Assembly: GCA_963575745.1 (NCBI GenBank)
Contig: CAUYUJ010000015.1
Span: 62,001-126,000, forward strand
Origin: Prorocentrum cordatum
Lineage: Eukaryota
Length of the DNA stretch: 64,000 nucleotides
Direction of reading: 5' to 3'
Under the pieces are notes generated by a model that had not been told where the DNA came from, made no database searches, and saw only the letters and a program-made list of their open reading frames with translations. Made by a program: the position numbers and the translations under genes. How positions within the stretch are numbered: the first letter of the stretch is position 1; each line of letters opens with the position of its first letter. Below are positions 12,894-46,795 of this stretch, one piece after another.

Positions 12894-14933
12894 GAGTTTT
12901 CTTCCCTTCTGCCTTCCCCCTTCCCTTCCCGTCCCTCCTCCGCTCCCCGCTCCTGTCTGCCCGTAAATAAATCCATGTAAGTCGATCGCACATTTGCCCA
13001 GGTGCCGGAGGCACGGGCCAAGTTTTTTCCCCCGAGTTCTAGATTGGCACGGCCTTCGGGCCGATCGTGAGTAGCGTAGCGTAGCGAGACCACGTTCGCG
13101 ACGGGCTTCTTCCCTCTGGGCGCGCCACTCCAGGCAGCGGCGACCGCCGAGCCAGCCCCTATTCTCGCGAGAAGACAGGCTTGCGCCTTGGCGTCGGCAT
13201 TCCGGCGCGCTCACAGGCGGGCCCCCTGCCGTCGTCGGCCCGGTTTACCAGTGGTCGGGCCCCACGGGGCCCCCATGTGCAGAGCGCGGCGCAGGCGCGG
13301 GCCGGGTGTCCACCTCTGGGGGCAGGTCGGAGCGTGGGTCTCAGTCTGTTTTGGCCGGCCGTCGAGGATCGGCTCCTCGGCTGGAGTCGAGCTTCGGCGG
13401 TCGGTGCGTGCTAGCTTTCGCTGCCGAGGGGCTCCCGGATCGAGTCCGGGTCTCCGCCCGTCCGCTGCGTCGCCGACCTGCGGGGTCGGTCAGCCTCGGC
13501 AGCTAGCGTCGCGAAGCCGCCGACTTTTTGGATTGATAATCTCGGAATCAAACCTGTCATCCGCATAATTCGGGCGCGCGTCAAATGGTTCGGCCTCCGT
13601 GTGTTTCGAGCGCCCTGGGTCGAGCCTTGTTTGGGCGCTTCCCGAGCGGCGCCAGCTCGCCTGACGCCCACCGTTCGAGGAGGTCGATCTTGACTTCTGC
13701 CAGTTCGGACCTCCACACTCGGTCTGCCGCTTGCGTGTTCATCGGCTCTGTCCACGATCTCGGAGCACAGGTGCCGCGTGCGGGCCCAGCTCGAAGACGC
13801 GCTACTTTTCAGGTCGGCCCCACTTGGATCTCGATGGCCGAGAACGGCTAGAGGCGTACAGTCGGGGCGTTGACCTAAGGAACCCTAAATAAGGAACGAG
13901 GCCCCTTTTTCCCACAAGTTAAACTTCGATTTCCCATCGAAGCCCTAAGCAAAACCAAAGGCGAACTGCAAAACAACTAAGGAACACCGAGCTCCTCCCC
14001 AACAAAAAGGGTTCCTTCCTCAGCGCCCCGACTGTAGCGCGCAGGCAGAAGGCTGCCCGTTCCCCAGTCAGAGCTGCCGGCCAAGTATGGCCAAGTCGCT
14101 GCGCTCATTGACTCTGCCATAGGCCATGATGTAATTTTACCAGGTTTACGTTTGTGCTCTGTGATCTCGCGAGGCGTTCTCGGATTCAGTGCAACGCTTC
14201 CTGCCGTCGTCAGCGTTTCACAAATGCTCGCAATGGCCATGGCAGTCGTCTTCGGCATAGAGTAGCAACTCTAGCGGTGTGTGCTGAGAGGTGATGAGGG
14301 GCCGCACGGCCCTCGGTGCCCTTTTTGAGAGCGGCACGCGAAGTAAAAAGGGCACCGAGACAGTGGACACGCTCGGCAGTATGATCGGCGCTCAAGCTCC
14401 CAAGCCCGCTCGCCCTCGCTCGAGGGGGTTTAAACATGTTGTTGTTCGACGTCTGTGCTCTGTGATCTCGCGGGGCGCTCTCGGATTCCGTGCGATGCCT
14501 CCTGCCACCGTCAGCGTTTCTAAGATGCTCGCAATGCAAGGCAATCGTCCTAGGCATCACCATCATCTTCAGCATCATCATCATGATCATGATCGTCCTT
14601 CTCATCATCACCATCATCCTCAACATCATCATCATCATCACCATCATCATCGTCATCATCATCAGCAGCATCATCATCATCGGCATCGGCATCATCATCA
14701 GCATCATCAGCATCACCATCATCACCCTCATAATTATCACCAGCATCACCATTATCATCCTCATCCTCATCCTCATCGTCTTCCTCATCACCATCATCCA
14801 TGTCGTTATCATAATCGTGACACTCCTCATTCCCTATCATCCTCCTCATCATCATCATCATCATCATCATCACCTTCATCACCAGCATCATCATAATAAG
14901 TGTCATCCACATCATCACCAGCATCCGCATCCG

Positions 14934-14975
<42 letters not shown>

Positions 14976-15576
14976 TGCCATCGCCATCACCATTGCATCA
15001 CCATCACCATCGTCATCATCATCAGCATCATCATAATCATCATCATAATCATCGCCATCCTCTTCTTGCAGCACCAGCAGCAGCACCATCCTCTCTTCCA
15101 GCATCTCTGGGGCACCAGACTCTCTTCCCCTTCGACTCTTCTCTCTCCTCCTACCCCCCCCCCTTCGACCGCCTCCTCCTCCCTCCCTCCGCCCACCGCC
15201 GAGGCCTGGGGGGCGCTCGAGGCGGCCGTCCTCGACGCCGACCCCGGCGCGCTCCGCGAGGCGGTGGCGCACGCGCGTCGCTTCGGTGTTGACAGGCAGG
15301 CCATCGCCATCGCCGAGCAGAAGATCGAGGCCGAGGAGGGCCCTCAAGACGACGTCGCCCTCGTCGTTGTCCTCGTCGATGTCGTCGCCATCGTCGCTGA
15401 AGTCACCGCCGTTGCCGACCAGAGGATCGAGGTTGAGAGGACCCTCGATGCCAGACCGCTCGCCTTCGCGCGTCTTGCTCCTGGCCATCGTCCCCTTTGC
15501 CCCACTTCCCCTCCTCCTCTTCCTCCTCATCCTCCTCCTCGTCCTCCTCCTCGTCCTCATCCCCATCCTCCTCCCT

Positions 15577-15670
<94 letters not shown>

Positions 15671-15769
15671 GCATCCTCACCCTCATCCTCATCCTCATCC
15701 TCATCCTCATCATCATCAGCATCAGCATCATCATCGTCATCGTCATCATCATCAGCATCATCATCATCG

Positions 15770-15820
<51 letters not shown>

Positions 15821-16414
15821 GCATCATCAGCATTATCCTCATCCTCATCCTCATCTTCCTCCCGTACCAGCGTCGATGCCGGCCTGGCCCGTTTTTATGC
15901 TTTTCCCCAGGAAGCAAGTGGGCGCGCAAATTGCACACCGACGGTCGCAGGCCGCATCGTTTGCACCTTGGCGGGTTGTATTCTTGATATGGTTGTTAAA
16001 TTCGTGCCATTTCGCTCTGTACGAAAGGTTTTGCCAAATTCCTGAAGAAGGTCATTGCCTGACCCCCGCACGCGTCACACCCAAGCCCACGAGTGCGAGC
16101 GGCAACGCTCCCAGCCGAAAGTGCGCACGCTGTCTGGGGTGGCCCCCGCGCATCTCAGACCACAGGCCGTCGAAACGCTGTATGGCTCCCTTTGTAAAAG
16201 TAGGCCCGATGTGCCCGTGCGAGCGCACGACGCGCACTCGGCCGACGACGGCCACTGCTCTACACCGTGGGACACCATTCCTGCGACAGCTCCAAGTGCT
16301 CATAGTGGGGGCGCGCATCAGGGCTGGGTTTCTTGCCAGGGCTTCCTGCGGCAGCGCCCGCACTGTATACGGAGCGCGGCGGCGATCCGAGCTGAAGCGA
16401 TCGGAACCCTTCCT

Positions 16415-16545
16415 TGGCATCGCTCGGACGTGTGCATTTTCCTTCGGCGAGGACCATCGAGAAGCATCCTTTATCATTTGGCGAAAGCGCCACGCACGAA
16501 ACCGAACAACAAAACACAGGGAATGGACGTCCGAGCGATGGCCAG
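16415..16545 (+). mobile_element. ~130-bp dispersed TIR element, copy 2
   Basis: Same ends and internal sequence as 4431-4558. Confidence 0.7.
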
Positions 16546-16764
16546 CTTCCTTCTGCCGCTGTCAGCAGCACGGCCCCTCGGGGCCGCGGGCCCTGCGCGC
16601 CCCTGCGCCGCCGGCCTGCGGCGCGATGGTGCCTTGGCGCGAGCAGCCGAGAGAGTCCTCCTCCTCCTCCTCCTCCTCCTCCTCCTCCTCCTCCTCCTCC
16701 TCATCCGCCTCCGAGGATCTCGTCACGCGTGGACCCGCTGAGCGACACGCCGCTCCCCCCAGCA

Positions 16765-16922
16765 TTACCAGCCTCGAACGTATCCCTATCCCTAGGATTG
16801 ACACGCCAAGAGGCGATGACAGTCTCAGGGGTTCGCCCTCAATAGACAAGGGAGTCCCTGAGATTGGCACCGTGACTAGGAGGTGCCCAGCATAGGGATA
16901 GGGATATGTTCCAGGCTGGTAA
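16765..16922. mobile_element. MITE-like element with ~30-bp TIRs
   Basis: ttaccagcctcgaacgtatccctatcccta pairs with tagggatagggatatgttccaggctggtaa (2 mismatches); flanked by cagca on both sides. Confidence 0.75.
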
Positions 16923-17920
16923 CAGCAGCACGCGTGCGCTTGGGCGGCTCCCGCACGTGCGCGCACACTCACAAGCACACACACACACACACGCAAGCAA
17001 CGCAACGTTCAACAACTCCGCTCGTGGGGTCCTCCTGGGCGAGCCGCGCCTGCCTGCGTGGTATGACACCGCCTGGCGCACCACAGCGCGGATGTCGTGG
17101 CGCTGTGCGGCCCCCCTCCGGCGCCGACGGCGTTCTCCAAGCCGTGTCCGACTGGGTGGCCGCGTTTGCAGGCGCGGTGTTGGGAGCCCGCTGTTGGGTG
17201 GGCTGCTCATGGTGTTTGGGTTTCGGCGGTCGCCACTCTCTACGAGTGGGAACTCCACGGGCCGCGAGAGCGACTGAGGCCGACGCGCGCTGCACGCAAC
17301 CTCGCCGAGCATCGCCACATTGCCCCCTGGAGGCACAACAAGAGGGGGAGAGGTGGGGGATGCAGAGGTATAGGAGAGAGAGAGAGAGAAAGAAAGAAAG
17401 AGAGAGAGAGAGAGGAACAAAAAAAACAATAAAGGGAGACAGAGAGACAGAGAGGGAGAGAGAGGGAGACAGAAAACAACAGTAAAAACAAGCTAGATGA
17501 GGGATGATTTGCCACCACAAGACTTCATACGTATATGAAGTCAACAAGACTATATGAAGTCAACGTGTGAGGGTCGACGTATGGAGTCAACAAGACTCCT
17601 TACGTCGACCTCGACATCCCTGGTGGCCTGGAGGTCGTGCTGGAGTCTGGGCCTGGAGGTCGAGCCTGACCCCTGCCTACCCCCCGCCACCGGCGCAGGG
17701 AAGGCCAGGAGCACTCGGTCGAGCCAGCGCGTGGCTCTCGCCACCTCCTGCGCTCGAGCATGCGACTCGGAAGCCTCCTCCCGAAAAGTTGGGCCAGCGC
17801 CTCTGGGCGCCTCTCTGGCGTGAAGCAGGAGGGTGGTCCAGGCTTGTGCGGGGACTGGGCAGGGAAGTTTGCACAGGTTTCTCACATCATGGTTCTCTTC
17901 CTCGCAGTTCCGGCTGCGGC

Positions 17921-17942
17921 TCCGTAGCCATTTTGGCTCAAG
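17921..17942 (+). other. Dinoflagellate spliced leader (DinoSL), genomic relic, exact
   Basis: TCCGTAGCCATTTTGGCTCAAG matches the consensus DCCGTAGCCATTTTGGCTCAAG. Confidence 0.97.
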
Positions 17943-18034
17943 CACGGAAGCCCAGACGTGCTGGGGGGGGGGCCCGCGCGTGGGCACCGAGGGGCGCCGC
18001 ATGTGGCCGCCCTGCAGCTCGAGGCCGGGCCGCG

Positions 18035-19048
18035 ATGGTGCAGTGGGTATGTCCGTCCTGCCGCTTTCGCAACAAGGCGACCTTTGCGGTGTGCGGAGGC
18101 GGCGGGCCCATGGGGTGCAAGCTGGCCAAGCCGAGCGGGCTCGACGCGGAGCCGGCCACGGGAGGTTACGGTGCGGCGAAGCCGGAGAGGCAGGAGCGGG
18201 GCTCCGCCCCCTATCCGCTGGCTGCAGCCGCAGGTGACAAGCCATCGGCCAGTACCTCCGAGAGTCAGGGGGAGGCAGCTGCGGCTGCCGCGGCCCTTGC
18301 TGTCGCCGCTCGAGCCGCCGCGGCCACCTGCGAGCTGCCCAAGCTGACCGCCGGAGCTGGTGCGGGCCAGACGCTGCACCCTGCGCCCAGCAGCAGCGCC
18401 GTCCTCGACGACCCCCTCGCTCAGATGGTGCAGGCTGCGCAGATGGCCGAGCTGGCGCAGCTGGCCCAGCTGCAGCAGTACCAGATGATGGGCTACGGCA
18501 GCACTGGCGGCAGCGCCGGCGGCGGCTGGGGCGCGGGCGGCTCCCCTGCGGACGAGCGGTGGCACTGCACGCAGTGCGGCTTCTGGAACAAGCCGACCAA
18601 CACGGTTTGCGGCGGCACTGGTCCGATGGGCTGCAAGGCGGCCAGGCCGGAGACGGTCGACCCTTTTCTGCAGGCCCAGGCGCTGTGGGCTGCGCAGCAG
18701 GCCTCGGCGAACGCCAGGGCTGGAGGCGCCTCCGTCGATGCAGACAAGTGGGTCTGCGAGTGCGGCTTCGCCAATCGGCTGATCAACACTGTCTGTGGAG
18801 GAGGAGGAGGCCCCCTGGGCTGCAGGCAGCAGAGGCTACGATGCGCCGGTGCCGCGAGGACACCGGCCGACGACGGCGACTCGTGGACCTGCACTTGCGG
18901 CTTCGTGAACTCCGCGAAAAATGTGCAGTGCGGAGGCAAGGGCGTGCTCGGCTGCAAGAAGGCGAGGGCCGAGCAGGTCGTTGCGGACCTCAAGCAGTAC
19001 CGCGAGCAGACGAACCAGCGGTCTGTCAGCACGCGGGCGCGGTCGTGA
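18035..19048 (+). CDS. Protein with four RanBP2-type-like zinc fingers (337 aa), intronless retrocopy
   Basis: Four repeats W-x-C-x(1-2)-C-x3-N-x6-C-GG-x(4-5)-GC: WVCPSCRFRN.., WHCTQCGFWN.., WVCECGFAN.., WTCTCGFVN.. ATG lies 92 nt after the SL. No stops or frameshifts. Confidence 0.85.
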   Translation: MVQWVCPSCRFRNKATFAVCGGGGPMGCKLAKPSGLDAEPATGGYGAAKPERQERGSAPYPLAAAAGDKPSASTSESQGEAAAAAAALAVAARAAAATCELPKLTAGAGAGQTLHPAPSSSAVLDDPLAQMVQAAQMAELAQLAQLQQYQMMGYGSTGGSAGGGWGAGGSPADERWHCTQCGFWNKPTNTVCGGTGPMGCKAARPETVDPFLQAQALWAAQQASANARAGGASVDADKWVCECGFANRLINTVCGGGGGPLGCRQQRLRCAGAARTPADDGDSWTCTCGFVNSAKNVQCGGKGVLGCKKARAEQVVADLKQYREQTNQRSVSTRARS

Positions 19049-20516
19049 GTGGTGACCCTGGGCGCCCCGCGCCCGGCGCACGCCCCGGCCTGGCACCAGG
19101 CGCGGGCGCCAGCGGCCCTGGGGCCGGCCCGCGGAGCGTGTCCCCGCCGCGGCTGCAAAAAAAAAGAAAGAAATCGCAGTTCCGGCTGCACTTGTCAGAG
19201 ATGTGGTTTGCAGACAGGGCTGCAGGCACACGCAGCGCCGTTGGCGGGGCCTCACGGGCTCCCCGTGAAAGTCTGAGAGCCCTCGCACTTCGAGCGGCCG
19301 GCTGCGATACCTGCGGGGCGGAAGACATCCAGGACGGGGCAGCTCTCTGATTGACAAGCGTTGTTGGCCCGCCGTCCGGCGCAGCACGGGCAGGTTTTTT
19401 CGACGAGGTCTCGAGCGACGGTCAGCCGCGCGACATCACGCCGGCTGGCGATCTCATCGGGAAGTCGCTCTCGGGAAATTTTCTTTCTCCTCCTCCTCCT
19501 CCTCGTCGCACCCACCGCCGAGGCCTGGGAGGCGCTCGAGGCGGCGAACGCGGGAGGTGATCTCCCCGCGCTTCACCAGCACAGCGTCTCCGAGGAGGCC
19601 GTCGCCGAGCAGGAGAGCGCGGAGGGGGAGGCCTCTCGAGACGCCGTCGTTGTCGTCCTCGTGATTGGCCTCGCCGTCGACGTCTTCGTCTGGGAAGTTG
19701 TTCGTCGGTTCTGGAGGTCCTGGTCGCAGCGGCTGGGTGTGGCTTCTCTTCGCTCAGCCTTCGCCGCCTCAGCTCCCTCCACATCCTCCTCCAGTGATTT
19801 TTGAGATTGCCCTTGCGCAGGTCAGCCAGCAAGGCGGACTAAATTATTCAGATGTAGCAATCGCTGGCAGGCAAACGTTCAGATTCTGAATGCGTCGCTT
19901 GTCCCAGCCAGCCGAGCTGGCAACCAGCGTCGTCCCCACTTTGCGGGCTCAGTCGGCTCATGGGGGACCGCTTTGAGGGGGGGCGGCGTGTTCGGGCCCA
20001 CCTCCTCATCGTCGTCGTTCCTTCTCTTCGGCGTGGGGCCCCGCGACAAGCTCGGAAGCTCCTGGAAGCTTCTCGCCGCCAGGGCAAAGGGAAGGGAGAG
20101 GGGAGGGAGCCACACCGCCTGCGCGCGGGGGATGGCGGGGGCGAGGAGCCGCGTGGCGGCAATGGAGGGGGGGAGATGCAGAGCAGGAGTGGGAGGGGCA
20201 GGAGCACGAGAAGGACGAGGGTCAGGAGGGGAAAAAACACACAGGCACAATTAATCGGCGATTCCCCCGAAAATTTCGGAAAATATGGGAAGTGGGGGGG
20301 AAGACAAAACCCCAGAAAATATGGTAAATATGGGAATCCTGTTACTTGTGTCTATTATTTGTGTGTCCTTGGGCCTCTTCAGAGGAGGTTGCCACCTGCA
20401 CTTGTGTATACGCCGCCTCGTCACCCTCTCTCTCTCTCTCTCTGAATGGCGCAAAGAGATGTATCAAACACAAAAACCCTCTCTCTCTCTCCGAACGGCG
20501 ATCCAGAGGGTCAAGA

Positions 20517-21758
20517 CTAGGAAGTCAACCCATCCAGAACGCTGAAAAACCTCTCAGCCCTGGCGATCGCACCGTCGCCATCCGTGCACACAACCCTCTG
20601 CCTGTGCTTGAACAACCTCGACACTCCAGACGTATCCAAGCCACTGGCCTCCACCGCGGCTGCGTAGTTCTCGCCTTTGCCAGCCGTCATCACCTGGATC
20701 GGCACGAGCACGTTGAAAGAAACCTCAGTGTATGATCCACCGATCTTGAACAACATACTGTACAACCATTATGTGTTCAACAATGGCAGTTTTGACACAT
20801 GCGTTGGTTCTCTGCCGCCGTCCATGTCGATCTGAGCTCTGTGAAGGTCGCGTCGCTCCAACGCGTTTCCAACTACTAGTTCCAAGGATGCGTCGTCGTT
20901 GTCAAAACATGCGCCTGTCAGCTTCTTCTCATCAAACCTGCACTGATGAGAAAACAACATGCACTCGCCACCTGCACTTGTAACCCTCCCAAAGCAAGCA
21001 TTCATCATGCTGATGCCCATTGCTCGTTCTATCAACACTGCCAGCGCCACAAGCCGTGACTTGTATATTGCGAAAACCGACCTGCCAAGTCCAGCAGCTT
21101 GGGCACTGACACTTTCACTCATCATATGTTTCGCCAGTTTGCCACGGAGCACATTGATCGTATCTGTTGCCACCTTGTTGAACATACCTGGTCTGTCAGG
21201 GTCCGCTCTTATGACGCCAAGTGCAACCAACAATGGGTTATACAAGAGGCTACCGCGACGGTGCCGTTGAACATGAAGGAGGCCCCGTAAACGGGCGCAG
21301 TCCTGATCTAAGGCATCAGCTGGTGGCCCGACTGGACCAGCAACAACAATCTGCATCTCATCGGGCACGACGTCGCCAACGGCACCCTCGATGTCGGCTG
21401 GCTCGCCGTCGCCCTCAGAGGCGCCCTCGACGTTGGCTGGCTCGACGTCGCCGCGCGAAGCTGCCAGCGGCGCGGCGACGTCCCTGGCCGCCAGAGCAGC
21501 ACCAACGGGCTGCCACAGCTCCTGGGCGGTGGCGCGCCGCTGGCGCCGCTTAGCCCCCCTGTCCAGCGGAGGCCCGTCCTGCGCGGGTTCCTCGGCGCCG
21601 TCCTCGGCAGGGCTCAACGAGCCTGCTCCCGCGAGAGCCTCCCAGCCGCCCACGTCGCCTTCCGCGAACGCAGCCCAGCCGCCACTGGGCGGCGCATCGG
21701 CCTCGCTCGGCGATGGGCTGGACGGCCCGACGAAATGCGCCCACCCCTCCAATGGCAT
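20517..21758 (-). pseudogene. SL-headed intronless ORF, frameshifted near 20765; unknown protein, possibly transposase-derived
   Basis: A ~330 aa frame from ATG 21758 continues in another frame at 20765-20517. The N-terminus is low-complexity, followed by non-repetitive sequence with QCRFDEK and RVVCTDGDGA. Confidence 0.5.
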
Positions 21759-21771
21759 GGAGGGGCTGGCG

Positions 21772-21793
21772 CCTGAGCCAAAATGGCTACGGA
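21772..21793 (-). other. DinoSL relic (1 mismatch)
   Basis: The reverse complement reads TCCGTAGCCATTTTGGCTCAGG, 13 nt upstream of an ATG at 21758. Confidence 0.9.
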
Positions 21794-24624
21794 TGTGCCA
21801 ATGCAACAGAACGTCTTGGAGAATTTGCAAGGCTTCTAACACCCCCGTTCAATACAATCAGTCTTCGGAGGCTTTTGTTCAATCGATATACGGGCGACTC
21901 TATCGTTATCCCACCAGCCCTTTGGCGACAGGTGGTCTAGATTCCTCTTCCCTCTTCCAACAACCCCTCTTCCCATTCAGGGAAGGGTTTATCACTGCTC
22001 CCTACCCCGTCCCACCTGGACGGGCGGGGGGGTCGCGTGTAGTTAGTTAGAGCGCACCTTTTCGGACCATGGGAATGCTATTTTTGACGCCCCCACACGG
22101 GTCGTGGCCTCCGAGGGGAGGGGCGTCGATCGGGACGCCCCCTCTTTTCGCCGACCGCTTCCAAGATGGCCCCAAAAATGCCTTCCAAGGCTCACAAGGA
22201 GCCCCCAAGAGCGCTCCAGGACCGCTCCAAGAAGCCCCAACATGGCCCCAGGACTGCCCCTGAGGCCCCCAAGACGGCCTTAAGAGGGCCCAAAGACAGT
22301 TCAAGTTGCCTCCAAGACGCCCAAGGTGGCCTCCAATACGGCCAAGATGGCCCCAAGAGAGCCCAAGATGGCCCAATGTCTCCAAGACGGCCCAATATGC
22401 ACCCAAGACGGCCCAATATAGCCCAAGGGTGGCCCAAGACGGCCAGAGACGACCCCGACAGGCCTCCAAAACGGATGTGGCTCACTTTTGGATTGCTGCT
22501 CGTTGCTACACCCCCCTCATCAAGGCAGCTCGCCTGGCGGCTGTTTTGGGGTGGGCTGGTGGGGATACGCGAAGCGTGAAGAGTTGTTTAGCCTTTGTTC
22601 AATCTACGTTCGGCTTCTACTCGATTCATCGCGCTGCGAAGCAACGAAGAACGCACAGCATGAGAGAGCTCTGGCCACACGACGCGTGCATTCACTTGCC
22701 TCCAAGACTCCCCATCTACAGCATGAGCTCGGCCACACGACGACTATGCCCCCCCTCCCCCCCGTCCCCAGTCCGACCCCCTCCTCTATCCCCTGGACTG
22801 GCTCACTAGGGCCCGTGACTCCGATAAGTTGGCAGATGGCGTCTAGATGTCCGTCGCACCCCTCCCTCTGCCAAAGCTAATTGGTCGTGGAGGAGGGCGA
22901 GGGCCCTCTTCCTATGTATCAGGCCCTCCGTCGGAAGGGGAGGTATAACGGTTAGGCAGAGGGCAGGCGATTGCGAGGAAGACAATGAGAAGGGGAGGAG
23001 GAGGAGGAGAAGAGCAACATGATGACGTAGAGGAGAGCGAAGAGCGATTTGAAGGAGAAGGTTTTGGTGCCCACTCACAATCGCGCATAGAATCGCATCC
23101 TGTTTTAAAAGAAGATCAGGCGCCCTCACAACGAACATGGTTCAATGTTTTTTCCATCGGCGGCCCTATCACTTGTCTATGTTTTGCCTATCGCGCTGTT
23201 TTCCTGGATTCTATCAACAAAAGGCGCGTGGGCATCACAACTCTTGGAGCGTCTTGGTGCCTCTGGGGTGTCTCTCGGGGCCTTCTCGGGGTCTCTTGGG
23301 AGCCTTTGGGGGGCATCCTGGGGGCCTCTTGGGGCCTCCCGGCCACCTCTTGGGGCCCTCTTGGGGCACCCATTGGGAGCCTTCGGAGCGCTCGTGGGGC
23401 CATATCGGAGGAGATCGATCAAAGAAGGGGGTTCCTTAGTTAGCGCCCCCCCAAGAGGCCCAAATGGGGCCAACACCTTAGTCAAACCAATGATGTGGGC
23501 TTCCTCGCAGAGGCCTTTTTGGACGTTCCGATACCTCGCCCCCTCCCCGTCCAAGTCCAGGCGAGGGGGTAGGGGGAGGGGTGCAGTAAACCCCTCCCCG
23601 AAGGGGAAGAAAAGGGGTTGGAAGAGGAGCCGCCCTAAAGCACCTACGCCCAGAGGGCTGGTGGGATTTACGGCAGCAGGCAAGCTGCCAGCATCAGCGC
23701 CTAGTTATCCAGCGCCCGCATTCCAGGCCACCGTCGATTCCAGACTCCTGACCCCCCGCCACGTCCCCCCCCGCGCCTTCAGAAAGGCAAAAGGCGCAGC
23801 AGAGGCAAGGGACAGAGTAGCACTGCATAGCGACTTCTGTTTCCGCGTGCCCACAGGCGCCAAACCCGACATAGCGTTTTGTGACGGGCGCGTTACTGCG
23901 AGCGAATGGGGGCTTACCTTCGATAGTTTCAGGGCTAGGCTGATGCAGAGCCATTATACCATGCAGCTTCTAGCACGTGTAGTTATTCAGTCAACCTCGT
24001 GTTGCGTCCGAGTCTTGTCTTGCCTTGCCTTGTCTTGTCTTGTCCTCCTCGTCCTGTTCCTCCTCCTCATCCTCCTCCTCCTCCCATCGTGCTTTGTCTC
24101 GCTTGTCTTGCGGACTGCCGCCGAAGAGCGGAATGTTGCGTCTGGGGCGATGACCGAAGGGCGCCCCCCCCTCGTCGGGGCGCTCCCTGGGGGAGCACTG
24201 GCGGAGCAGCGTCTCCCCCGGGCCTGTTCCTGAACAGCCCACGAGGTGCTCTCGTCGGCGCGCGGCCCTCGAGTTGCACGAAGTCGATTTACGGAGAGGA
24301 CGCATGCTGCCAAATAATTTCCGGATGTCTAAAACATGTTTCAACCATGTTTGAGTTTTTTAAAATTAAACAAACGTAAGAACATGTTCGAAACATGTTA
24401 GAACATGTTTTACACCGTTTAACCACATCTTTAGTTCAATGATAGGACTGTTCGAGTGTCCATTGTCATGGCATCCACGACCCTAGAGGCTTCCCCCGGG
24501 AAGCTTTTTCACCATGGACCCATTTTTGCCGTCCTGGGACCCGACAGCGGGCCTCGAAATCACATCGTCGGGTGATGGGTCCTTCCTCGCCGCACAGCTC
24601 CGCATCCAGGGTCGTCTGGGAAGG

Positions 24625-35952: not shown

Positions 35953-38048
35953 AGGGGGGTCGTTCTGGCTTGGCCGGAAGGACCCCCCCAAACGGGGCAT
36001 TACCGCCCCGCGGGGCTGTTCGGGCTTTCCCCTTGGCCCGAAAAGGCTCCCCTCACCTCCTTTCTGGTGCTGTGGTGCGCCACCAGGGCGCCTAAACAAG
36101 GGGGCGTTGCTCGGGCTTGGCCCGACGGCACCCCCCACACGGGGTCTTGACCGTTGATGGGAGCTCCACTGGAGCACCCCAAGCAAGGGGGGTTGTTCGG
36201 GCTCGGCCCGAAGAACCCCACCATTGTGGTGCGCCACCAGGGCGCCAAAGCAAGGGGGTTGTTCGGGCTTGGCCTGAAGGACCCCCCGAACGGGGCATTA
36301 TCGCCCCGCGGGGCTGTTCGGGCTTCCCCCTTTGGCCCGAATAAGCTCCCCTCTCTTTTTTTTGGTGCTGTGGTGCGCCACCAGGGCGCCAAAGCAAGGG
36401 GGGTTGTTCGGGCTTGGCCTGAAGAGCCCCCCAAACGGAGCATTACCGCCCCGCGGGGCTGTTCGGGCTTTCCCCTTGGCCCGAATAAGTTCCCCTCGCC
36501 TCCTTTCTGGTGCTGTGGTGCGCCACCAGGGCGCCAAAGCCAGGGGGAGTTGATCGGGCTTGGCCCGACGGCTCCCCCCAAAGGGGTCTTACCACCTCGC
36601 GGCTGTGGTGCGCCACCAGGGCGCCAGAACAAGGGGGGTTGTTCAGGCTCGGCCCGAAGGGCCCCCCCAACGGGGCAACGCCCCACGGGGCTGTTCGGGC
36701 CTACCCCTTAGCCCGAACAAGCTCCCCTTCCTTTCTGTTGCGGTGGTGCGCCACCAGGGCGCCAGCGCAAGGGGGGTTGTTCGGGCTTGGCCTGAAGGAA
36801 ACCCCCAAGAGGGGCCTTACCGCCCCACGGGGCTGTTCGGGCTTTCCCTTTGGCCCGAATAAGCTCCCCTTCCTTTCTGTTGCGGTGGTGCGCCACCAGG
36901 GCGCCAAAGCAGGGGGGGGTAGTTCGGGCTTGGCCTGGAGGAACCCCCAAACAAGGGCCTTACCGGCCCACGGGGCTGCTCGGGCTTTCCCCTTTGGCCC
37001 GGATAAGCTCGCCCCCCTCCTCCTTGGTGCTGTGGTGCGCCACCAGGGCGCCTGAGCAAGGGGGGTGATTCGGGCTTGGCCCGAAGGACCCTCCAAACGG
37101 GGCCTTGCCGGCCCACGGGGCTTTTCGGGCTTCCCACTTGGCCCGAACTAGCTCCCCCAACCTCCTTTTTGTTGCTGCGGTGCGCCACCAGGGCGCCAGA
37201 ACAAGGGGGGGTGGTCGGGCTCGGCCCGAAGGACCCCCCCCCCCAAAGGGGCATCACCGCCCCACGGGGCTGTTCTGGTTTACCCCTTAGCCCGAACAAG
37301 CTCCCTTTCCTTTCTGTTGCTGCGGTGCGCCACCAGGGCGCTAGAGCAAGGGGGGGGGGTCGGGCTTGGCCTGACGGGACCCCCCAAGAGGGGCCTTACC
37401 GGCCCACGGGGCTGTTCGGGCGTTCCCTTTGGCCCGAATAAGCTCCCCTTCCTTTCTGTTGCGGTTGGTGCGCCACCAGGGCGCCAAAGCAAGGGGGTGT
37501 TGTTCGGGCTTGGCCTGAAGGACCCCCCCAAGAGGGGCCTCACCGCCCCACGGGGCAGTTCGGGCTTACCCTTTAGCCCGAATGAGCTCCCTTTCCTTTC
37601 TGTTGCGGCGGAGCGCCACTAGGGCGCCAAAGCAAGGGGGGGGTAGTTCGGGCTTGGCCTGAAGGAACCCCCCAACAGGGGCCTTGCCGGCCCACGGGGC
37701 TGCACGGGCTTTCCCCCTGGCCCGAATAAGCTCGCCTCCCTCCTCCTTGGCGCTGCGGGGCGCCACCAGGGCGCCTGAGCAAGGGGGGTGATTCGGGCTT
37801 GGCCCGAAGGACCTCCCAAACGGGGCCTTGCCGGCCCACGAGGCTTTTCGGGCTTCCCCCTTTGGCCCGAATGAGCTCCCCTAGCCTCCTTTCTGTTGCT
37901 GCGGTGCGCCACCAGGGCGCTAGAGCAAGGGGGGGGGTCGGGCTTGGCCCGAAGGCACCCCCGAACGAGGCCTGACCGCCTCGCGGGGCTGTTCGGGCTT
38001 CCCCCTTGGCCCGAATAAGCCCCCCTAACCTCCTTTCTGGTGCTGTGG
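35953..38048. repeat. Diverged tandem satellite, ~144-bp unit, ~14 copies
   Basis: The core gtgcgccaccagggcgc recurs every ~143-147 bp. Confidence 0.9.
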
Positions 38049-42722: not shown

Positions 42723-44197
42723 GGACGACTATTTCGTACCCTTTGAAACGCTTGCTGGTCCGGGGGATGCCAGCCCATCCTCGGCACGAGCGCCAATGCG
42801 GCCCCTGGGGGCCGCCAGGCTCAACCATGGAGGGACCTATCGTACAACATGGTCTCTGTAGGGGCGGATATTTGGGAAGTTGCCCGTGCCAGAATCTACG
42901 TTTCCAGATGGCCTCCGGCCACTCTGCTCCAGAGGGCCACCGTGCCCGAGAGGGTGGTGACACCAGTAAACTGGGCCCACTAACGGGGTTGAGGCGCCCC
43001 TAAGCCATATCACTTCAAGCTCCTCCTCCTCCTCCTCCTCCTCCTCCTCCTCCTCCTCCTCTTCCTCCTCCTCCTCGCCCTCCTCCGCCTCCCCCTCGTC
43101 CTCCTCCTCCTCCCCCCTTTTCCTCTTCATCCACCGCGCTTCCGGGAGGGGATCAGGTGGGCGAGGGGAGGGTGGCCCTGTTAGAAGGCAGCGGGGCCTG
43201 CTCGGAGGGGCGGGGGCGCTTCCCAAGGAGGCCTCTCAGATGGTGGGAATGCGTCTGCGAGGATCCAGGGAGGCCCGGTGCCCTCTTGGAAGGCCGCCCA
43301 GCACCACCCAAAGGCGTGCGTGTCCCAAGTCCCCCAAGTGTTTCGGGCCCTCTTGTCGCCGCCGGGGCCCGCTGCGCATCGCAAGACGGCGTGCTCTCGA
43401 AGGCCGCGGGGGCTTCCCGGGAAGGGCCGGGGGCAGCCCGGCCCAGGGACGCATTTGGCAGCCACCCGTCTTTCTGCGCCGCCGGGAGGACAGGAGGCGG
43501 CAGAGGACCCGCCTGGGGGGCTCGCATGCGGCCGCCGCCCGTCGACCGGCCCTGGCACCCAGGCGCCCCGCTGCGACGCCGCCTGGGGCCCCAGGCGGGA
43601 GGAGGCGAGCTCAAACGGGGGAGGGCAACGTTCCCAGGGCTCCCTCGGGCCCTCCCCGCGCCGAGAGCTCGGGCCTCCTGGGGCTCCTACGTCGCAGGTG
43701 TTTGCTTCCCGGCGCACACTGTCTGTAAAGAGCCGTGTGTAGATTGCATTCACAGATGCATTTAAATACACAGACATGCATGTCCCTAGATTTTTACATC
43801 CCGCATGGGAAAAGAAACCCTTCGGATCGCCGCCACCCTCACCCCCATACCTTCTGGACGGTATTCCCCAGCCCCTGGGAATTTGTCGGAAGAGCTCCCG
43901 GAGCGCCGAAAGTGCCCCCCCGCCCCCCCCCCCACACACCAGCCAAAGAGGCCCCCAAACTGGCCCAAGAGGCTCCCAAGGCACCCTAAGAGAATTCCCA
44001 AAATTGCCCAAGAGCGCTACAAGAGGGCCCAAGGCGGCTTCTACACGGCCACATAAGCCCTCAAGACGGCCCAAGAGGCCCACCAGAGGGCAACCCAAAG
44101 GCACAAATCGTTGCATTCCCCTTGGTAAATGTATATCGTTTGGGTATTCTTGACAGCGTCCGAGACGACCCAAAAGGCCCCCAAGATCGTCCCACGG

Positions 44198-46760
44198 TGC
44201 CTCGATGCCGAGGAAGCTGAGATTTCAAAGTGCGATGCTGAAGAGGCTCATAAAAGGTCTATGGCTGCTCGCCTCCGTCGCCGCCAAGCCCTCCGGAGGA
44301 AGTTTCGTCGGCGTGCTGTTTTGGCCTCGGTTATGGATCCTTCTGGTTCCCCTTCCAGCTCTCTTCCTGAGGCCGCTCGTCTTCTTCGGGAACACTGGTC
44401 TGAGGTGTTCAAGGCCCCCTCCGTGGACCAGGAGCTCTGGGATGAGGCGAAACCCTTCATTCAGACCCTTGATGGACCCATTAACTGTGCATGGAAGCTT
44501 GACTACCATGATTGGCGTCAGATGTGGATTAAGCGCAACAAGTCGATGCCAGGCCCTGAGTGGATACCCTACTCTGTCTGGAAACATCATGAGGCCTCCC
44601 GGCTATTGTACTCCTGTTATCTTCTCCTCTTCACAGATAGCGTCACTCAATTACCCGAAGACATGAGGTTGAGCTTGATGGTTTTTCTTCCGAAGGGCAC
44701 GGACCCGAAGGATAATGCTGCTGACGGCCTGGTTCGCTCCCCCTCGTGCACCCGTCCCCTCAGCATGAGCAACACCGATGTGAAAATCCTCGCGAGCGCC
44801 TTCTATCACGCCTGTGGTCTCTAACACCATGCACCTGATAGGGAGCGAGCAAAAATGTGTGAAAGGGAGGGCGATGATATCTAATGTTATCAGGGCGGAG
44901 GGATGGGGCCTTGCTCAGCACCTACGCGATGCTCCTCACCCATCTCTGTTCCTGATGGACTTCGCGTCCGGTTTCCCGTCCCTGGCGCAGTGCTGGCTTT
45001 TCTTTGTGCTCCAGTGCATGGGCATTGACTATTATGGTATACGCTTTTTCGAAATGATGTATGCTGATAACAAGGGGATCATCTGCCTCAATGGTCGCCG
45101 GTTTGATCTTATAGCTGTGGGGGGTAAAGCAAGGTTGTCCAGCTTCAATGTACCTATTCGTAATGGCCGTCGACCCCTCCTGCGATGGCTACGCCACCGA
45201 TGCTCGCGATTTATCGACTTGAACTTAGCATACGCAGATGACTTCTTGTTTGGCCTGGTGAACGTCCTCACCGATCTTAGCCCTGTGCTGCACGGCCTGA
45301 TGCTGCTTGCTAAGATTGCGAATTTACAGCTGAATTTCAAGAAGTGCCAGTTGATTTTATGTGGCACGACCGATCATCAGCGCCTTCGAGAGGTTTTAAA
45401 GAGCTTTGGCGCACCCTTCTGTGAAATTCAAGTCCTCTCCTGGGCTGTGTATCTTGGCTTCCCGATCGGTCCCGAGGCCCACTTGCACGTCTGGCAGTCT
45501 ATCCTTCCTGGGTTCCTGGCTCGGGTGCACCAAACTCGGCTGTTGGGACTGGGCATTGCGAGGTCGGCCTTGGTTTTCCAGGTGATGTGCGTTTCGAAGT
45601 TGCTGTTTCGTCTTCAACTTTATCCTCTGGATCAGCTTCTGGTTCACAAGTTTCGGGGAAGTGTAATGTTGTTGACTTCGGGGCCTCGCAACGCCATCTC
45701 TTATAACATTGCCACCAAGCTGAAGGCGATTGGCTTTGGGATCGAGTTCGTTGAGATTAGCGCTGTCGCACAAGCCGCTGCCCTTCGCTTTATGCTCAAA
45801 TGCCCCGACTTTCCCGGCGTCTTTGAGGAGCTTTGAGAGGACCCGCGATGACCTTGAGCACATCCCTTATCGCTGGCACCGTGGTTGGAACCCCCTCCTC
45901 TTTTCTTGGGCATATGCGGTTGCTCTGGGACAAGTTTTCTGGCCTTAAACCGACGGTCCTGAGGTGGAATCCAAAATCGATCCAGGGTAAGTTGTACAAG
46001 CGTATTCGGGCTCTTGAAGATTCTGAACCTGTTCGGGATACTCTTTTACGGCGTGCTCATTATTTTTGTAAGTCTGTCACTGCCCAGCAGATCGCTCGCA
46101 TGTGTAGTATGGTTAAGAAAGTGTGCAAAGCGAGCTCCATGTATATTGGCATTGCACCGCTTCGAGTTCTGACTGGAGCCTTTTGTACCTCAGCGCGTTT
46201 CCACTCCGCTCCTGCTGGCTGCCTCTTTGGATGCGAAGTAAGGATGGAGGGTCAAGATCTTGATTCTCTGCGTCATTATTCCCATTCTCCGAGGTTCTGT
46301 TCGATTATGTATAAATGGCTTGGTGATCAACTCTGTGTCTCTGAAGGACCCGTGAACCCCAACTGGTTCCACTCTTGCCTCTTCCTCCATTGTGATTCCG
46401 TGCCCGCCTGCTTGAAACGTGCTGCGTGCCTTGATGCGTTCCTGTCGGCTCATAATGCCAGGCGTGCGTCTGCCCGTGGCACGCCCCAGCAGGTCTTTGA
46501 GGCTAGATTGCGCGTCGCTGCCCGCCGCCACAGACAAATAGCTGATGCATGGTCCTCCGAAGGCCAGCCGAGGTCTCGACTGCTCTCTCGTGCCGCTGCC
46601 CCTCCTGTGAGTGCGAGTGCTGGTGAAGCGCTGCCTGTGCGTGCTCCAGGGGCGCCGCGAGGCAGATGGGTGCTTCCCACATCAGGCTGATAGTTGGTGC
46701 TGCCGCACACTTTCACACTGCGCGAGGTCTCTCGCCCACCTTCTCGACAGGAAACCTATA

Positions 46761-46792
<32 letters not shown>
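44198..46792 (+). mobile_element. 5'-truncated non-LTR (LINE) retrotransposon, RT plus C-terminal Cys/His region, frameshifted; (TA)n tail and 15-bp TSD
   Basis: Motifs KSMPGPEWIPY, RPLSMSNTDVKI, MDFASGFPSL, AYADD, LNFKKC, YLGFPIG, CLFGC..DSLRHY. TSD aagatcgtcccacgg at 44183-44197 and 46793-46807. Confidence 0.92.

Positions 46793-46795
<3 letters not shown>

What the first reader, a model, noticed from the sequence alone, without database searches (positions are those of the whole stretch)
17902..19189. Full-length retrogene with intact spliced leader, poly(A) and 16-bp TSD
Seen: a perfect 16-bp direct repeat flanks GGC + exact 22-nt SL + 92-nt UTR + intact intronless CDS + 108-nt UTR + A-tail. 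Known: dinoflagellates recycle trans-spliced mRNA into the genome, leaving SL relics. Inference: the TSD and tail indicate LINE-type target-primed reverse transcription. The TSD length is close to the 15-bp TSD of the LINE at 44.2-46.8 kb. The three extra bases before the SL may be untemplated or cap-derived.
Basis: partly seen in the sequence, partly recalled or inferred. Interest (0 to 1): 0.75.

Follow-up and report, generated by a model that had tools for sequence, protein, structure and literature searches.

The report
Clean spliced-leader retrogene in a dinoflagellate
A complete dinoflagellate messenger RNA, with its spliced leader and poly(A) tail, was copied back into the genome and left the insertion scar typical of LINE-type jumping-gene machinery; such gene copies are well known in these algae, but so clean a scar is rarely shown.

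Summary
A perfect 16-bp direct repeat (17902-17917 and 19174-19189) brackets GGC, the exact 22-nt DinoSL, a 92-nt 5'UTR, an intact 337-codon ORF, a 108-nt 3'UTR and a 17-nt A-rich tail.

The nearest proteins are named Prorocentrum cordatum. Its gene models for the same gene lose homology at four or more internal points, which I read as introns. The window copy is colinear with the mRNA.

Transcript contigs in 4 of 4 runs laid begin inside the leader at the same junction. One runs into an A tail at the same site. They differ from the window at about 1.8% of positions.

So this is a full-length processed retrocopy, inserted at a staggered cut, most likely by LINE-type target-primed reverse transcription. 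The differences fit near-neutral drift: 13 non-synonymous to 7 synonymous, with the window copy the derived one at 8 of 13. Window-type variants appear at about a quarter of the depth in two RNA-like runs, so expression is possible but not shown.

The link to the LINE at 44 kb is weak, because that element has a (TA)n tail. This scan had already noted similar leader-tagged retrogenes and LINEs elsewhere in this genome. It is a new member of a known kind.

The parts
17902..17917 (+). Left copy of the 16-bp target-site duplication, TCGCAGTTCCGGCTGC. With the pyrimidine run just before it, it reads like a splice acceptor (ttctcttcctcgCAG|tt).
   Evidence: Only 2 copies in the window, and 0 of 100 shuffles gave 2 or more.
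17918..17920 (+). Three extra bases (GGC) between the repeat and the leader, read as 5' extra nucleotides.
   Evidence: The interpretation by analogy rests on passages of PMC4245944.
17921..17942 (+). DNA-encoded complete 22-nt dinoflagellate spliced leader.
   Evidence: The consensus is quoted in PMC5585692. Transcript contig X1 record 1 starts at 17927, inside the leader, and runs on colinear.
17943..18034 (+). 5'UTR (92 nt). It holds an out-of-frame upstream ATG at 18001.
   Evidence: Gene model P0009 starts at the first base after the leader.
18035..19048 (+). Intronless ORF of 337 codons plus stop. It has four RanBP2/NZF-like zinc fingers at 18044-18118, 18560-18634, 18749-18823 and 18884-18955.
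   Evidence: It is 96% identical to transcript-derived P0002.
19049..19156 (+). 3'UTR (108 nt). Its last 7 nt, CGGCTGC, equal the last 7 nt of the target-site duplication.
19157..19173 (+). A-rich tail (A9 G A3 G A3), the remnant of the mRNA poly(A) tail.
   Evidence: Parent-type contig X1 record 8 runs through 19157-19173 and 7 letters beyond.
19174..19189 (+). Right copy of the 16-bp target-site duplication.

Best explanation
This is a processed retrocopy of a nuclear gene of a Prorocentrum-type dinoflagellate. The gene encodes a small protein with four RanBP2/NZF-like zinc fingers.

A mature mRNA, already trans-spliced to the 22-nt leader and polyadenylated, was reverse transcribed over its full length. 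It was inserted at a chromosomal site cut with a 16-bp stagger, and repair of the stagger produced the 16-bp duplication. Three extra bases (GGC) were added at the 5' junction. Shown here: the anatomy, the intron-bearing parental form, and the shared leader junction and tail site.

Inferred: the enzyme was the endonuclease and reverse transcriptase of a non-LTR (LINE) element acting in trans, that is, target-primed reverse transcription. Its target preference is unlike L1.

Since insertion, or since separation from the best-sampled parental copy, the copy has diverged by about 1.8%. The pattern is close to neutral, so the intact ORF is not evidence of function. The copy may be transcribed, because window-type variants are seen in RNA-like assemblies.
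For: Anatomy:
-, as set out under the observation check.

The parent has introns:
- NCBI P. cordatum models CAK0904725-30 (138,943-bp contig) and CAK0901218 (148,274-bp contig) match transcript form P0002 at 142 of 145, 84 of 85 and 99 of 100 residues.
- They switch to unrelated sequence at four internal points, and show an alternative 10-residue insert at a fifth.
- The window ORF is colinear with the mRNA across all of these points.

Transcripts (4 of 4 runs laid, 4 studies):
- Cover is confined to 17927-19173, except one 182-nt contig on the left flank.
- X2 record 12 is a single 1199-nt contig spanning 17938-19140 with 21 other letters and 4 gaps.
- X1 record 1 starts inside the leader.
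- X1 record 8 runs through the tail plus 7 letters with 6 mismatches. Four of these are the listed variant sites, so the other two probably fall on the two G of the tail (inferred).
- X15 is on record as poly(A) RNA.

Drift:
- There are 23 listed substitution sites, 20 of them in the CDS: 13 non-synonymous and 7 synonymous. dN/dS is 0.63. This is not below the neutral expectation (P=0.22), and it rejects omega of 0.2 or less (P=0.011).
- At 8 of 13 non-synonymous sites the window residue is the odd one out against P0002 plus two more distant relatives. The other 5 are ambiguous, and at none is P0002 clearly the derived one. This was read by eye.
- The chance of no stop codon after 10-20 random substitutions is 0.70-0.49.

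Possible expression:
- Window-identical bubble contigs cover 18347-18457 and 18763-18876.
- Depths are 10.3 against 35.8 and 11.1 against 41.5 in X1, and 10.6 against 29.9 and 14.4 against 45.2 in X6.
Against: - No DNA reads or second assembly could be laid across the two junctions. No served run holds more than 0.43 of the sampled words, which is what the mRNA part alone at about 98% identity would give.
- No empty-site allele was found.
- The parental locus was seen only through protein models, not as DNA.
- The primer end that the cut would leave (...CTGCGA-3') has no T run to pair with poly(A), and no LINE with a poly(A) tail is in this window. The enzyme is therefore unidentified.
- The tail carries 2 G in 17 nt, more than about 1-2% divergence predicts.
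- The kind of X1, X2 and X6 is not on record. If they were DNA runs, the 'parent-type' contigs could be further retrocopies.
- P0018, a JGI transcript protein, is parent-type except for the window-type T and R near the C-terminus. The gene family is therefore a mosaic of variants. The true source may be a minor paralogue, and the window-type reads may come from that paralogue rather than from this locus.
Confidence: 0.9

Rival explanations
1. Same origin, different fate. The copy is a live new gene, transcribed through a new trans-splice acceptor upstream and kept by selection, rather than a drifting processed pseudogene.
For: - The ORF is intact.
- Window-type variants appear at about 21-26% of the summed depth in X1 and X6.
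- The window-type C-terminus appears in a JGI transcript protein, P0018.
- A pyrimidine tract plus CAG lies in and just before the left repeat.
- Published work reports that many dinoflagellate retrogenes survive and are expressed (abstract and passages of PMC5585692 and PMC12014239).
Against: - dN/dS is 0.63 overall. At least 8 of 13 amino-acid changes fall on the window branch while the parent stays conserved.
- An intact ORF is expected by chance at 0.5-0.7.
- No listed contig joins the left flank to the relic leader.
- The window-type reads may stem from an intron-bearing paralogue.
- The exact 337-aa and 312-aa proteins are not in the 15-billion-protein collection.
Confidence: 0.3
2. The cDNA was captured at a chance chromosome break by end joining, without a LINE endonuclease (endonuclease-independent insertion).
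For: - The target lacks a T-rich primer site.
- There are extra bases at the 5' junction.
- No poly(A)-tailed LINE lies in the window.
Against: - A clean 16-bp duplication with no loss of target bases, a full-length insert and a tail starting at the mRNA's own poly(A) site are the marks of a staggered enzymatic cut.
- Endonuclease-independent L1 insertions typically lack such duplications. This point is recalled; only the abstract of PMC1920257 was seen, in a search listing.
- The neighbouring LINE-like element has a 15-bp duplication.
- Earlier notes of this scan report 14-bp duplications around leader-capped LINEs in this genome (untested here).
Confidence: 0.06
3. Assembly artefact: cDNA or transcript sequence wrongly built into the genomic contig.
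For: No DNA reads could be laid over the junctions.
Against: - A contaminating cDNA would not be framed by a perfect 16-bp duplication of the host site.
- It would not differ at about 1.8% from the dominant transcript, with most changes derived on its own branch.
Confidence: 0.02

Closest known systems
DinoSL-relic retrogenes of dinoflagellates ('recycled' processed cDNAs). Slamovits and Keeling 2008 is recalled and cited in PMC6050394. Song et al. 2017 is PMC5585692. PMC12014239 was also consulted.
   Same: A DNA-encoded leader lies directly upstream of an intronless copy of an expressed gene. Prorocentrum is among the genera where such copies are reported (passages).
   Different: - Those studies identify copies by the leader relic, mostly in transcripts.
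- In the four texts I searched for the words (PMC6050394, PMC12014239, PMC5585692, PMC11453091), 'target site' and 'direct repeat' occur 0 times. The LINE role is stated there only as presumed.
- Here the whole insertion, with both junctions, the tail and the duplication, is visible.
- The leader is complete rather than the truncated relic seen after re-splicing.
L1-mediated processed pseudogenes and retrogenes of mammals.
   Same: A full mRNA copy, no introns, a poly(A) tail at the mRNA's own site, and a flanking duplication of about 15 bp. L1 gives 15-bp duplications (abstract of PMC4245944).
   Different: - The target here is TTCC/TCGC, not TT/AAAA (the L1 preference is recalled).
- The 5' end is a trans-spliced leader.
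- The driver element is unidentified.
5' extra nucleotides at LINE 5' junctions (zebrafish ZfL2-2 and others; PMC4245944).
   Same: A few bases of no evident template sit between the upstream duplication and the insert's first base.
   Different: Those data describe LINE copies in vertebrate cells. Here the insert is a host mRNA copy in a dinoflagellate. Whether the bases come from the cap or from untemplated addition is unknown.
Leader-capped LINEs and leader-tagged retrogenes noted earlier by this scan in the same genome (e1-7626471, e1-7630467, e1-7694002, e1-7693944).
   Same: A complete leader lies inside a 14-16-bp duplication.
   Different: Those are on other pieces of the genome and were not examined here. 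One retrogene there is said to have a different kind of tail.

Membership tests
DinoSL-relic retrogene | A DNA-encoded DinoSL (full or relic) lies upstream of the coding sequence. | tested here: met
   22 of 22 bases match at 17921-17942. The consensus is quoted in PMC5585692.
DinoSL-relic retrogene | The copy has no introns while a parental gene has them. | tested here: met
   P. cordatum models of the parental type lose homology at four or more internal points, and one isoform carries a 10-residue insert. This was seen through proteins only, not through DNA.
DinoSL-relic retrogene | The parental transcript carries the leader at the same junction. | tested here: met
   X1 record 1 starts at 17927 inside the leader and runs on. 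X2 record 12 starts at 17938.
LINE-type (target-primed) processed retrocopy | A target-site duplication of about 7-20 bp frames the insert exactly. | tested here: met
   16 of 16 bases match. It is unique in the window, and 0 of 100 shuffles gave 2 or more copies.
LINE-type (target-primed) processed retrocopy | The 3' tail starts at the mRNA's own polyadenylation site. | tested here: met
   Parent-type contig X1 record 8 runs colinear into 19157-19173 and 7 letters beyond. The tail here has 2 G in 17 nt.
LINE-type (target-primed) processed retrocopy | A T-rich first-strand nick site pairs with poly(A), as for L1 (TT/AAAA; recalled). | tested here: not met
   The site is ...CTCTTCC/TCGCAG..., so the primer end would be ...CTGCGA-3'. 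It is not an L1-type target, but other LINE clades differ in this respect.
LINE-type (target-primed) processed retrocopy | An active LINE with a matching tail and duplication length is present in the genome. | tested here: inconclusive
   The only LINE-like element in the window has a 15-bp duplication but a (TA)n tail, and no Pfam RT match at E up to 0.1. No whole genome is held.
RanBP2-type zinc finger (Pfam PF00641) | The Pfam model is reached at its gathering score. | tested here: not met
   The score is 21 bits against a cut-off of 27, with E=1.9e-4. Relatives P0007, P0012 and P0014 carry precomputed PF00641 hits.
RanBP2-type zinc finger (Pfam PF00641) | The W-x-C-x2-C ... N ... C-x2-C pattern is present. 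| tested here: inconclusive
   Four units of W.C..C.F.N......C are present, but the last Cys pair is spaced by 6-7 residues (CGGxGxxGC) instead of 2. There is a weak match to the HOIL-1 NZF, E=0.037.

The most novel reading that the evidence does not exclude
The insertion duplicated a splice-acceptor-like site (pyrimidine tract plus CAG, in and just before the 16-bp repeat). The copy now uses the upstream one to receive a new leader. On this reading a dinoflagellate retrocopy gained expression at once from its target site and runs at about a quarter of the parental level while its protein changes fast. A further oddity is unexplained. The last 7 nt of the mRNA before the tail equal the last 7 nt of the target (about 3e-4 per position by the count). 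This could mean that targets are chosen by pairing with the RNA's 3' end.
Probability: 0.12. Interest if true: 0.55.

Novelty: new member of a known kind. Interest (0 to 1): 0.38.

Why it matters
Retroposition of leader-tagged mRNAs is held to be a main source of gene copies and genome growth in dinoflagellates. The enzyme behind it, however, is only presumed.

A young copy with both junctions intact shows the mechanism's footprint directly:
- a full-length cDNA;
- a 16-bp staggered cut;
- a few extra bases at the 5' end;
- a target that is not L1-like.

This gives a search template for a genome-wide table that could name the responsible LINE family: leader within a few bases of a 14-16-bp repeat whose second copy follows an A tail. 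As a single case it adds no new principle, and the scan had already met similar cases in this genome.

Tried and rejected
- Whole-genome search for the parent and for other copies: no genome is held for this window.
- Earlier findings by sequence: no look-alike window. Word searches gave only the general leader and LINE notes.
- Empty site: a 24-nt stretch of left flank plus repeat found 0 metagenome contigs. A protein-guided scan of metagenome contigs found 298 pattern matches but 0 confirmed relatives.
- Sequencing runs: 20 of 24 listed rows hold part of the stretch, and none holds half or more. In the 4 runs laid, the flanks are bare except X2 record 11 (17612-17793, 182 nt, exact, depth 3.8). 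Nothing can therefore be said about junction-spanning DNA or an empty allele.
- Double-leader transcripts: none among the 20 listed pieces. Another 23 pieces were not shown.
- An X6 contig lying on 17910-17943 continues on both sides in unrelated sequence. I take it as another leader-relic transcript.
- The joint 18546 to 19294 in X1 and X6 has only 22 letters on one side and sits in a 1634-nt contig. I take it as a match from another GC-rich gene.
- Second leader relic (21772-21793, minus strand): no repeat of 9 nt or more from its 40 upstream bases within 9 kb downstream.
- My scan of the window for an A tail followed by a 12-nt or longer upstream repeat gave only this locus. One other hit turned out to be a tandem repeat.
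- Pfam on 5 long open frames around the locus: 0 families. On 3 frames of the LINE-like element, only a chance-level hit.
- Rfam on the whole window: 0 matches.
- Self-BLAST of 15-22 kb against the window gave only simple-sequence matches in the part of the output I saw, which was cut. The insert and its immediate flanks are not repeated in the listed rows.
- Literature: 0 papers hold dinoflagellate + 'target site duplication' + retroposition. 0 papers hold dinoflagellate + spliced leader + LINE + TSD as whole words. One search was badly framed and says nothing.
- Slamovits and Keeling 2008 and Jaeckisch 2011 were not read. The supplements of PMC10666404, which include a dinoSL table, were not opened and may list this gene model.
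Full report
**What is in the sequence**

One search shows the following on the + strand:
- TCGCAGTTCCGGCTGC at 17902-17917.
- GGC at 17918-17920.
- TCCGTAGCCATTTTGGCTCAAG at 17921-17942.
- A 92-nt leader region, 17943-18034.
- An ATG-to-TGA frame, 18035-19048 (337 codons).
- 108 nt of 3'UTR, 19049-19156.
- A9-G-A3-G-A3 at 19157-19173.
- TCGCAGTTCCGGCTGC again at 19174-19189.

The 22-mer is the published dinoflagellate spliced leader with U in the variable first place (consensus quoted in a passage of PMC5585692). The 16-mer has just these two copies in 64 kb, even with 2 mismatches allowed. The expected count is 0.09, and 0 of 100 shuffles reached 2. The leader core has two matches at up to 3 mismatches, against 0.02 expected. 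The bases next to the two 16-mers differ, so the repeat is exactly 16 bp. The only nuance is that the tail is A-rich, with two G, rather than pure A.

**Whose gene it is**

No whole genome is held for the window. A search of the large protein collection gave 13 proteins at E up to 1e-3 among 8000 scored candidates. The best is P0002: 311 aa, 96% identity, from transcript-sized contigs of about 1.2 kb. Several fragments are named Prorocentrum cordatum by NCBI.

The exact look-up shows that six consecutive NCBI models, CAK0904725-30, sit on one 138,943-bp contig. CAK0901218 sits on a 148,274-bp contig. Neither the window's 337-aa protein nor its 312-aa form from the second Met is in the collection.

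The protein has four units of W-x-C-x(1,2)-C-x-F-x-N-x(5-7)-C-G-G-x-G-x-x-G-C. It matches Pfam's RanBP2-type finger only below threshold (21 bits against 27) and matches the NZF finger of HOIL-1 weakly (E=0.037). A more distant relative marked complete by its source (P0012) also starts with a finger at residues 3-27. This supports the upstream ATG at 18035 as the start, although most transcript-derived relatives were called from the later MGCK.

**The parent has introns**

In their matching parts, the P. cordatum models agree with P0002 at 142 of 145 (P0005), 99 of 100 (P0009) and 84 of 85 (P0010) residues. Against the window protein the figures are 136 of 145, 96 of 100 and 78 of 85.

Each model leaves the mRNA sequence abruptly:
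- P0009 after ...MAELAQ, near window nt 18460.
- P0005, P0015, P0017 and P0019 enter only at DERWHC, near 18551.
- P0010 enters at GGASVD, near 18719-18725.
- P0005, P0010 and P0019 run off after KKARAEQ, near 18976, whereas P0017 is spliced on to VVADLKQY.
- P0015, P0016 and P0019 carry a 10-residue insert after QQRPGC.

I read them as intron boundaries and alternative splice forms of an intron-bearing locus of the 'parent type'. P0009 begins at the very first base after the leader junction. The window copy is colinear with the mRNA through all these points. This evidence is at the level of protein models, because the DNA of those contigs could not be fetched.

**Transcripts**

No served run holds half or more of the sampled words of 17600-19500; the best share is 0.43. 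That is what the mRNA part alone would give at about 98% identity. I laid four runs from four studies at 90% likeness. X15 is on record as poly(A) RNA. The kind of X1, X2 and X6 is not on record.

Cover is confined to 17927-19173, apart from one exact 182-nt contig on the left flank (X2, 17612-17793, depth 3.8). Key contigs:
- X2 record 12 is a single 1199-nt contig over 17938-19140 with 21 other letters and 4 gaps.
- X1 record 1 begins at 17927, inside the leader.
- X1 record 8 runs from 18847 through the tail to 19173 and has 7 more letters. Four of its 6 mismatches are listed variant sites, so the other two very probably fall on the two G of the tail (inferred; the letters are not shown).

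The parental mRNA thus carries the leader at the same junction, and its A tail starts at the same site as the window's. That is the signature of a copy made from the mature mRNA.

**Divergence and direction**

Table 3 lists 23 substitution sites, a 3-nt difference in a GGA run, and a length difference in a G run of the 5'UTR. Of 20 sites in the CDS, 13 change the amino acid and 7 do not. This gives dN 0.0186, dS 0.0297 and a ratio of 0.63. The ratio is not lower than neutral expectation (P=0.22) and is incompatible with omega of 0.2 or less (P=0.011).

From the alignment, read by eye:
- At 8 of the 13 sites (residues 38, 115, 131, 264, 268, 269, 271, 326) the window residue is the odd one out against P0002 and two more distant relatives.
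- The other 5 sites (122, 172, 236, 287, 334) are ambiguous.
- At none is P0002 clearly the derived one.
- The extra Gly codon is also peculiar to the window.

So the changes fell mainly on the window's branch while the parent stayed conserved, as expected for a copy released from constraint. An ORF of this make-up stays free of stops through 10-20 random substitutions with probability 0.70-0.49. Its intactness therefore proves nothing.

**Is the copy expressed?**

In X1 and X6 the two multi-variant stretches, 18347-18457 and 18763-18876, exist in two forms. One is identical to the window and one is parental:

| Run | Stretch | Window-type depth | Parental depth |
|---|---|---|---|
| X1 | 18347-18457 | 10.3 | 35.8 |
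| X1 | 18763-18876 | 11.1 | 41.5 |
| X6 | 18347-18457 | 10.6 | 29.9 |
| X6 | 18763-18876 | 14.4 | 45.2 |

X2 and X15 show only the parental form. A JGI transcript protein, P0018, is parental except for the window-type T and R near the C-terminus.

Either this locus is transcribed, or an intron-bearing minor paralogue shares its variants. In the second case the paralogue would be the true source and the copy younger than 1.8% suggests. No listed contig joins the flank to the relic leader, so I cannot decide between these.

**Mechanism**

A full-length cDNA, a tail at the RNA's own poly(A) site, and a clean 16-bp duplication without loss of target bases point to a staggered enzymatic cut and priming on the target. 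That is the LINE way (target-primed reverse transcription). The reading rests on established knowledge of non-LTR elements. The 15-bp figure for L1 is in the abstract of PMC4245944.

The three bases GGC fit the '5' extra nucleotides' described for LINE 5' junctions (passages of PMC4245944). Whether they are cap-derived or untemplated cannot be told here.

The site itself (...CTCTTCC/TCGCAG...GGCTGC/ACTTG) is not T-rich, so the endonuclease is not L1-like in its choice.

The LINE-like element at 44.2-46.8 kb does have a 15-bp duplication. But it ends in (TA)n, and its frames match no Pfam reverse transcriptase at E up to 0.1. I call it LINE-like only from a YADD-type motif recalled from memory. 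It is thus poor evidence for the driver.

Earlier notes of this scan report leader-capped LINEs with 14-bp duplications, and other leader-tagged retrogenes, on other pieces of this genome. I did not test them. They agree with the reading and show that the scan has met this kind of thing before.

**Unexplained details**

- The last 7 nt of the 3'UTR (CGGCTGC) equal the last 7 nt of the duplication. The word occurs 33 times on both strands in 64 kb, which is about 3e-4 per position on one strand. I see no role for it in the usual priming geometry.
- The tail's two G exceed what 1-2% divergence predicts.
- The left repeat with the bases before it reads like a splice acceptor (ttctcttcctcgCAG). 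An acceptor there could supply a new trans-splice site.

**Comparison with what is known, and novelty**

Leader-relic retrogenes are a textbook feature of dinoflagellates, and Prorocentrum is among the reported genera (PMC6050394, PMC5585692, PMC12014239; abstracts and passages). In those three texts and the review PMC11453091, 'target site' and 'direct repeat' occur 0 times. The LINE role is given there as presumed. Two full-text searches for dinoflagellate retroposition together with target-site duplication returned 0 papers. The library lacks most subscription journals, and I did not read Slamovits and Keeling 2008.

The case is therefore a new and unusually clean member of a known kind. 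It is useful as a template for a genome-wide table, not a new principle.

**Verdict**

- Observation: confirmed.
- First reading: supported, except for the weak tie to the neighbouring LINE.
- Best explanation: full-length processed retrocopy made by LINE-type insertion and drifting near-neutrally, confidence 0.9.
- Interest: 0.38.

Noticed in passing
window 21772-21793 (minus strand), with the open frame 20769-21848 (minus): A second DNA-encoded spliced leader with one mismatch (..CTCAGG) heads a 359-codon open frame on the opposite strand. The frame has no Pfam match. No repeat of its upstream bases lies within 9 kb, so it is an older or differently bounded retrocopy, convergent with the one studied.
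   Followed up: partly
window 44184-46808: A 5'-truncated LINE-like element with a 15-bp duplication (AAGATCGTCCCACGG) and a (TA)n tail. Its frames carry a YADD-type motif but match no Pfam reverse transcriptase at E up to 0.1.
   Followed up: partly
window 19150-19156 against 17911-17917 and 19183-19189: The last 7 nt of the retrocopy's 3'UTR before the tail are identical to the last 7 nt of the target-site duplication (CGGCTGC). It could be chance or a hint of pairing between the RNA end and the target.
   Followed up: partly
window 17612-17793: One RNA-like run (X2) holds an exact 182-nt contig of the left flank at low depth (3.8). The neighbourhood upstream of the insertion may therefore be transcribed.
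   Followed up: no
window 18001-18237: An out-of-frame upstream ATG opens a 78-codon frame that overlaps the main start. An NCBI model of the parental locus (P0009) was built partly in this frame.
   Followed up: no
window 36250-36950: A tandem repeat with a unit of roughly 120-170 nt, with the recurring words GGCGCCCTGGTGGCGCACCAC and GCCCGAACA. It mimicked a duplication in my tail scan.
   Followed up: partly
window 14466-16895: An 809-codon stop-free frame in a GC-poorer, strongly C-skewed stretch full of short repeats shared with 2.5, 5.6, 25, 34-35 and 62 kb. It has no Pfam match and is probably low-complexity satellite rather than a gene.
   Followed up: partly
protein P0018 (JGI transcript, 311 aa): A transcript form that is parental throughout except for the window-type residues T and R near the C-terminus. 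It is either a mosaic allele or paralogue, or a chimeric assembly of two transcript types.
   Followed up: no
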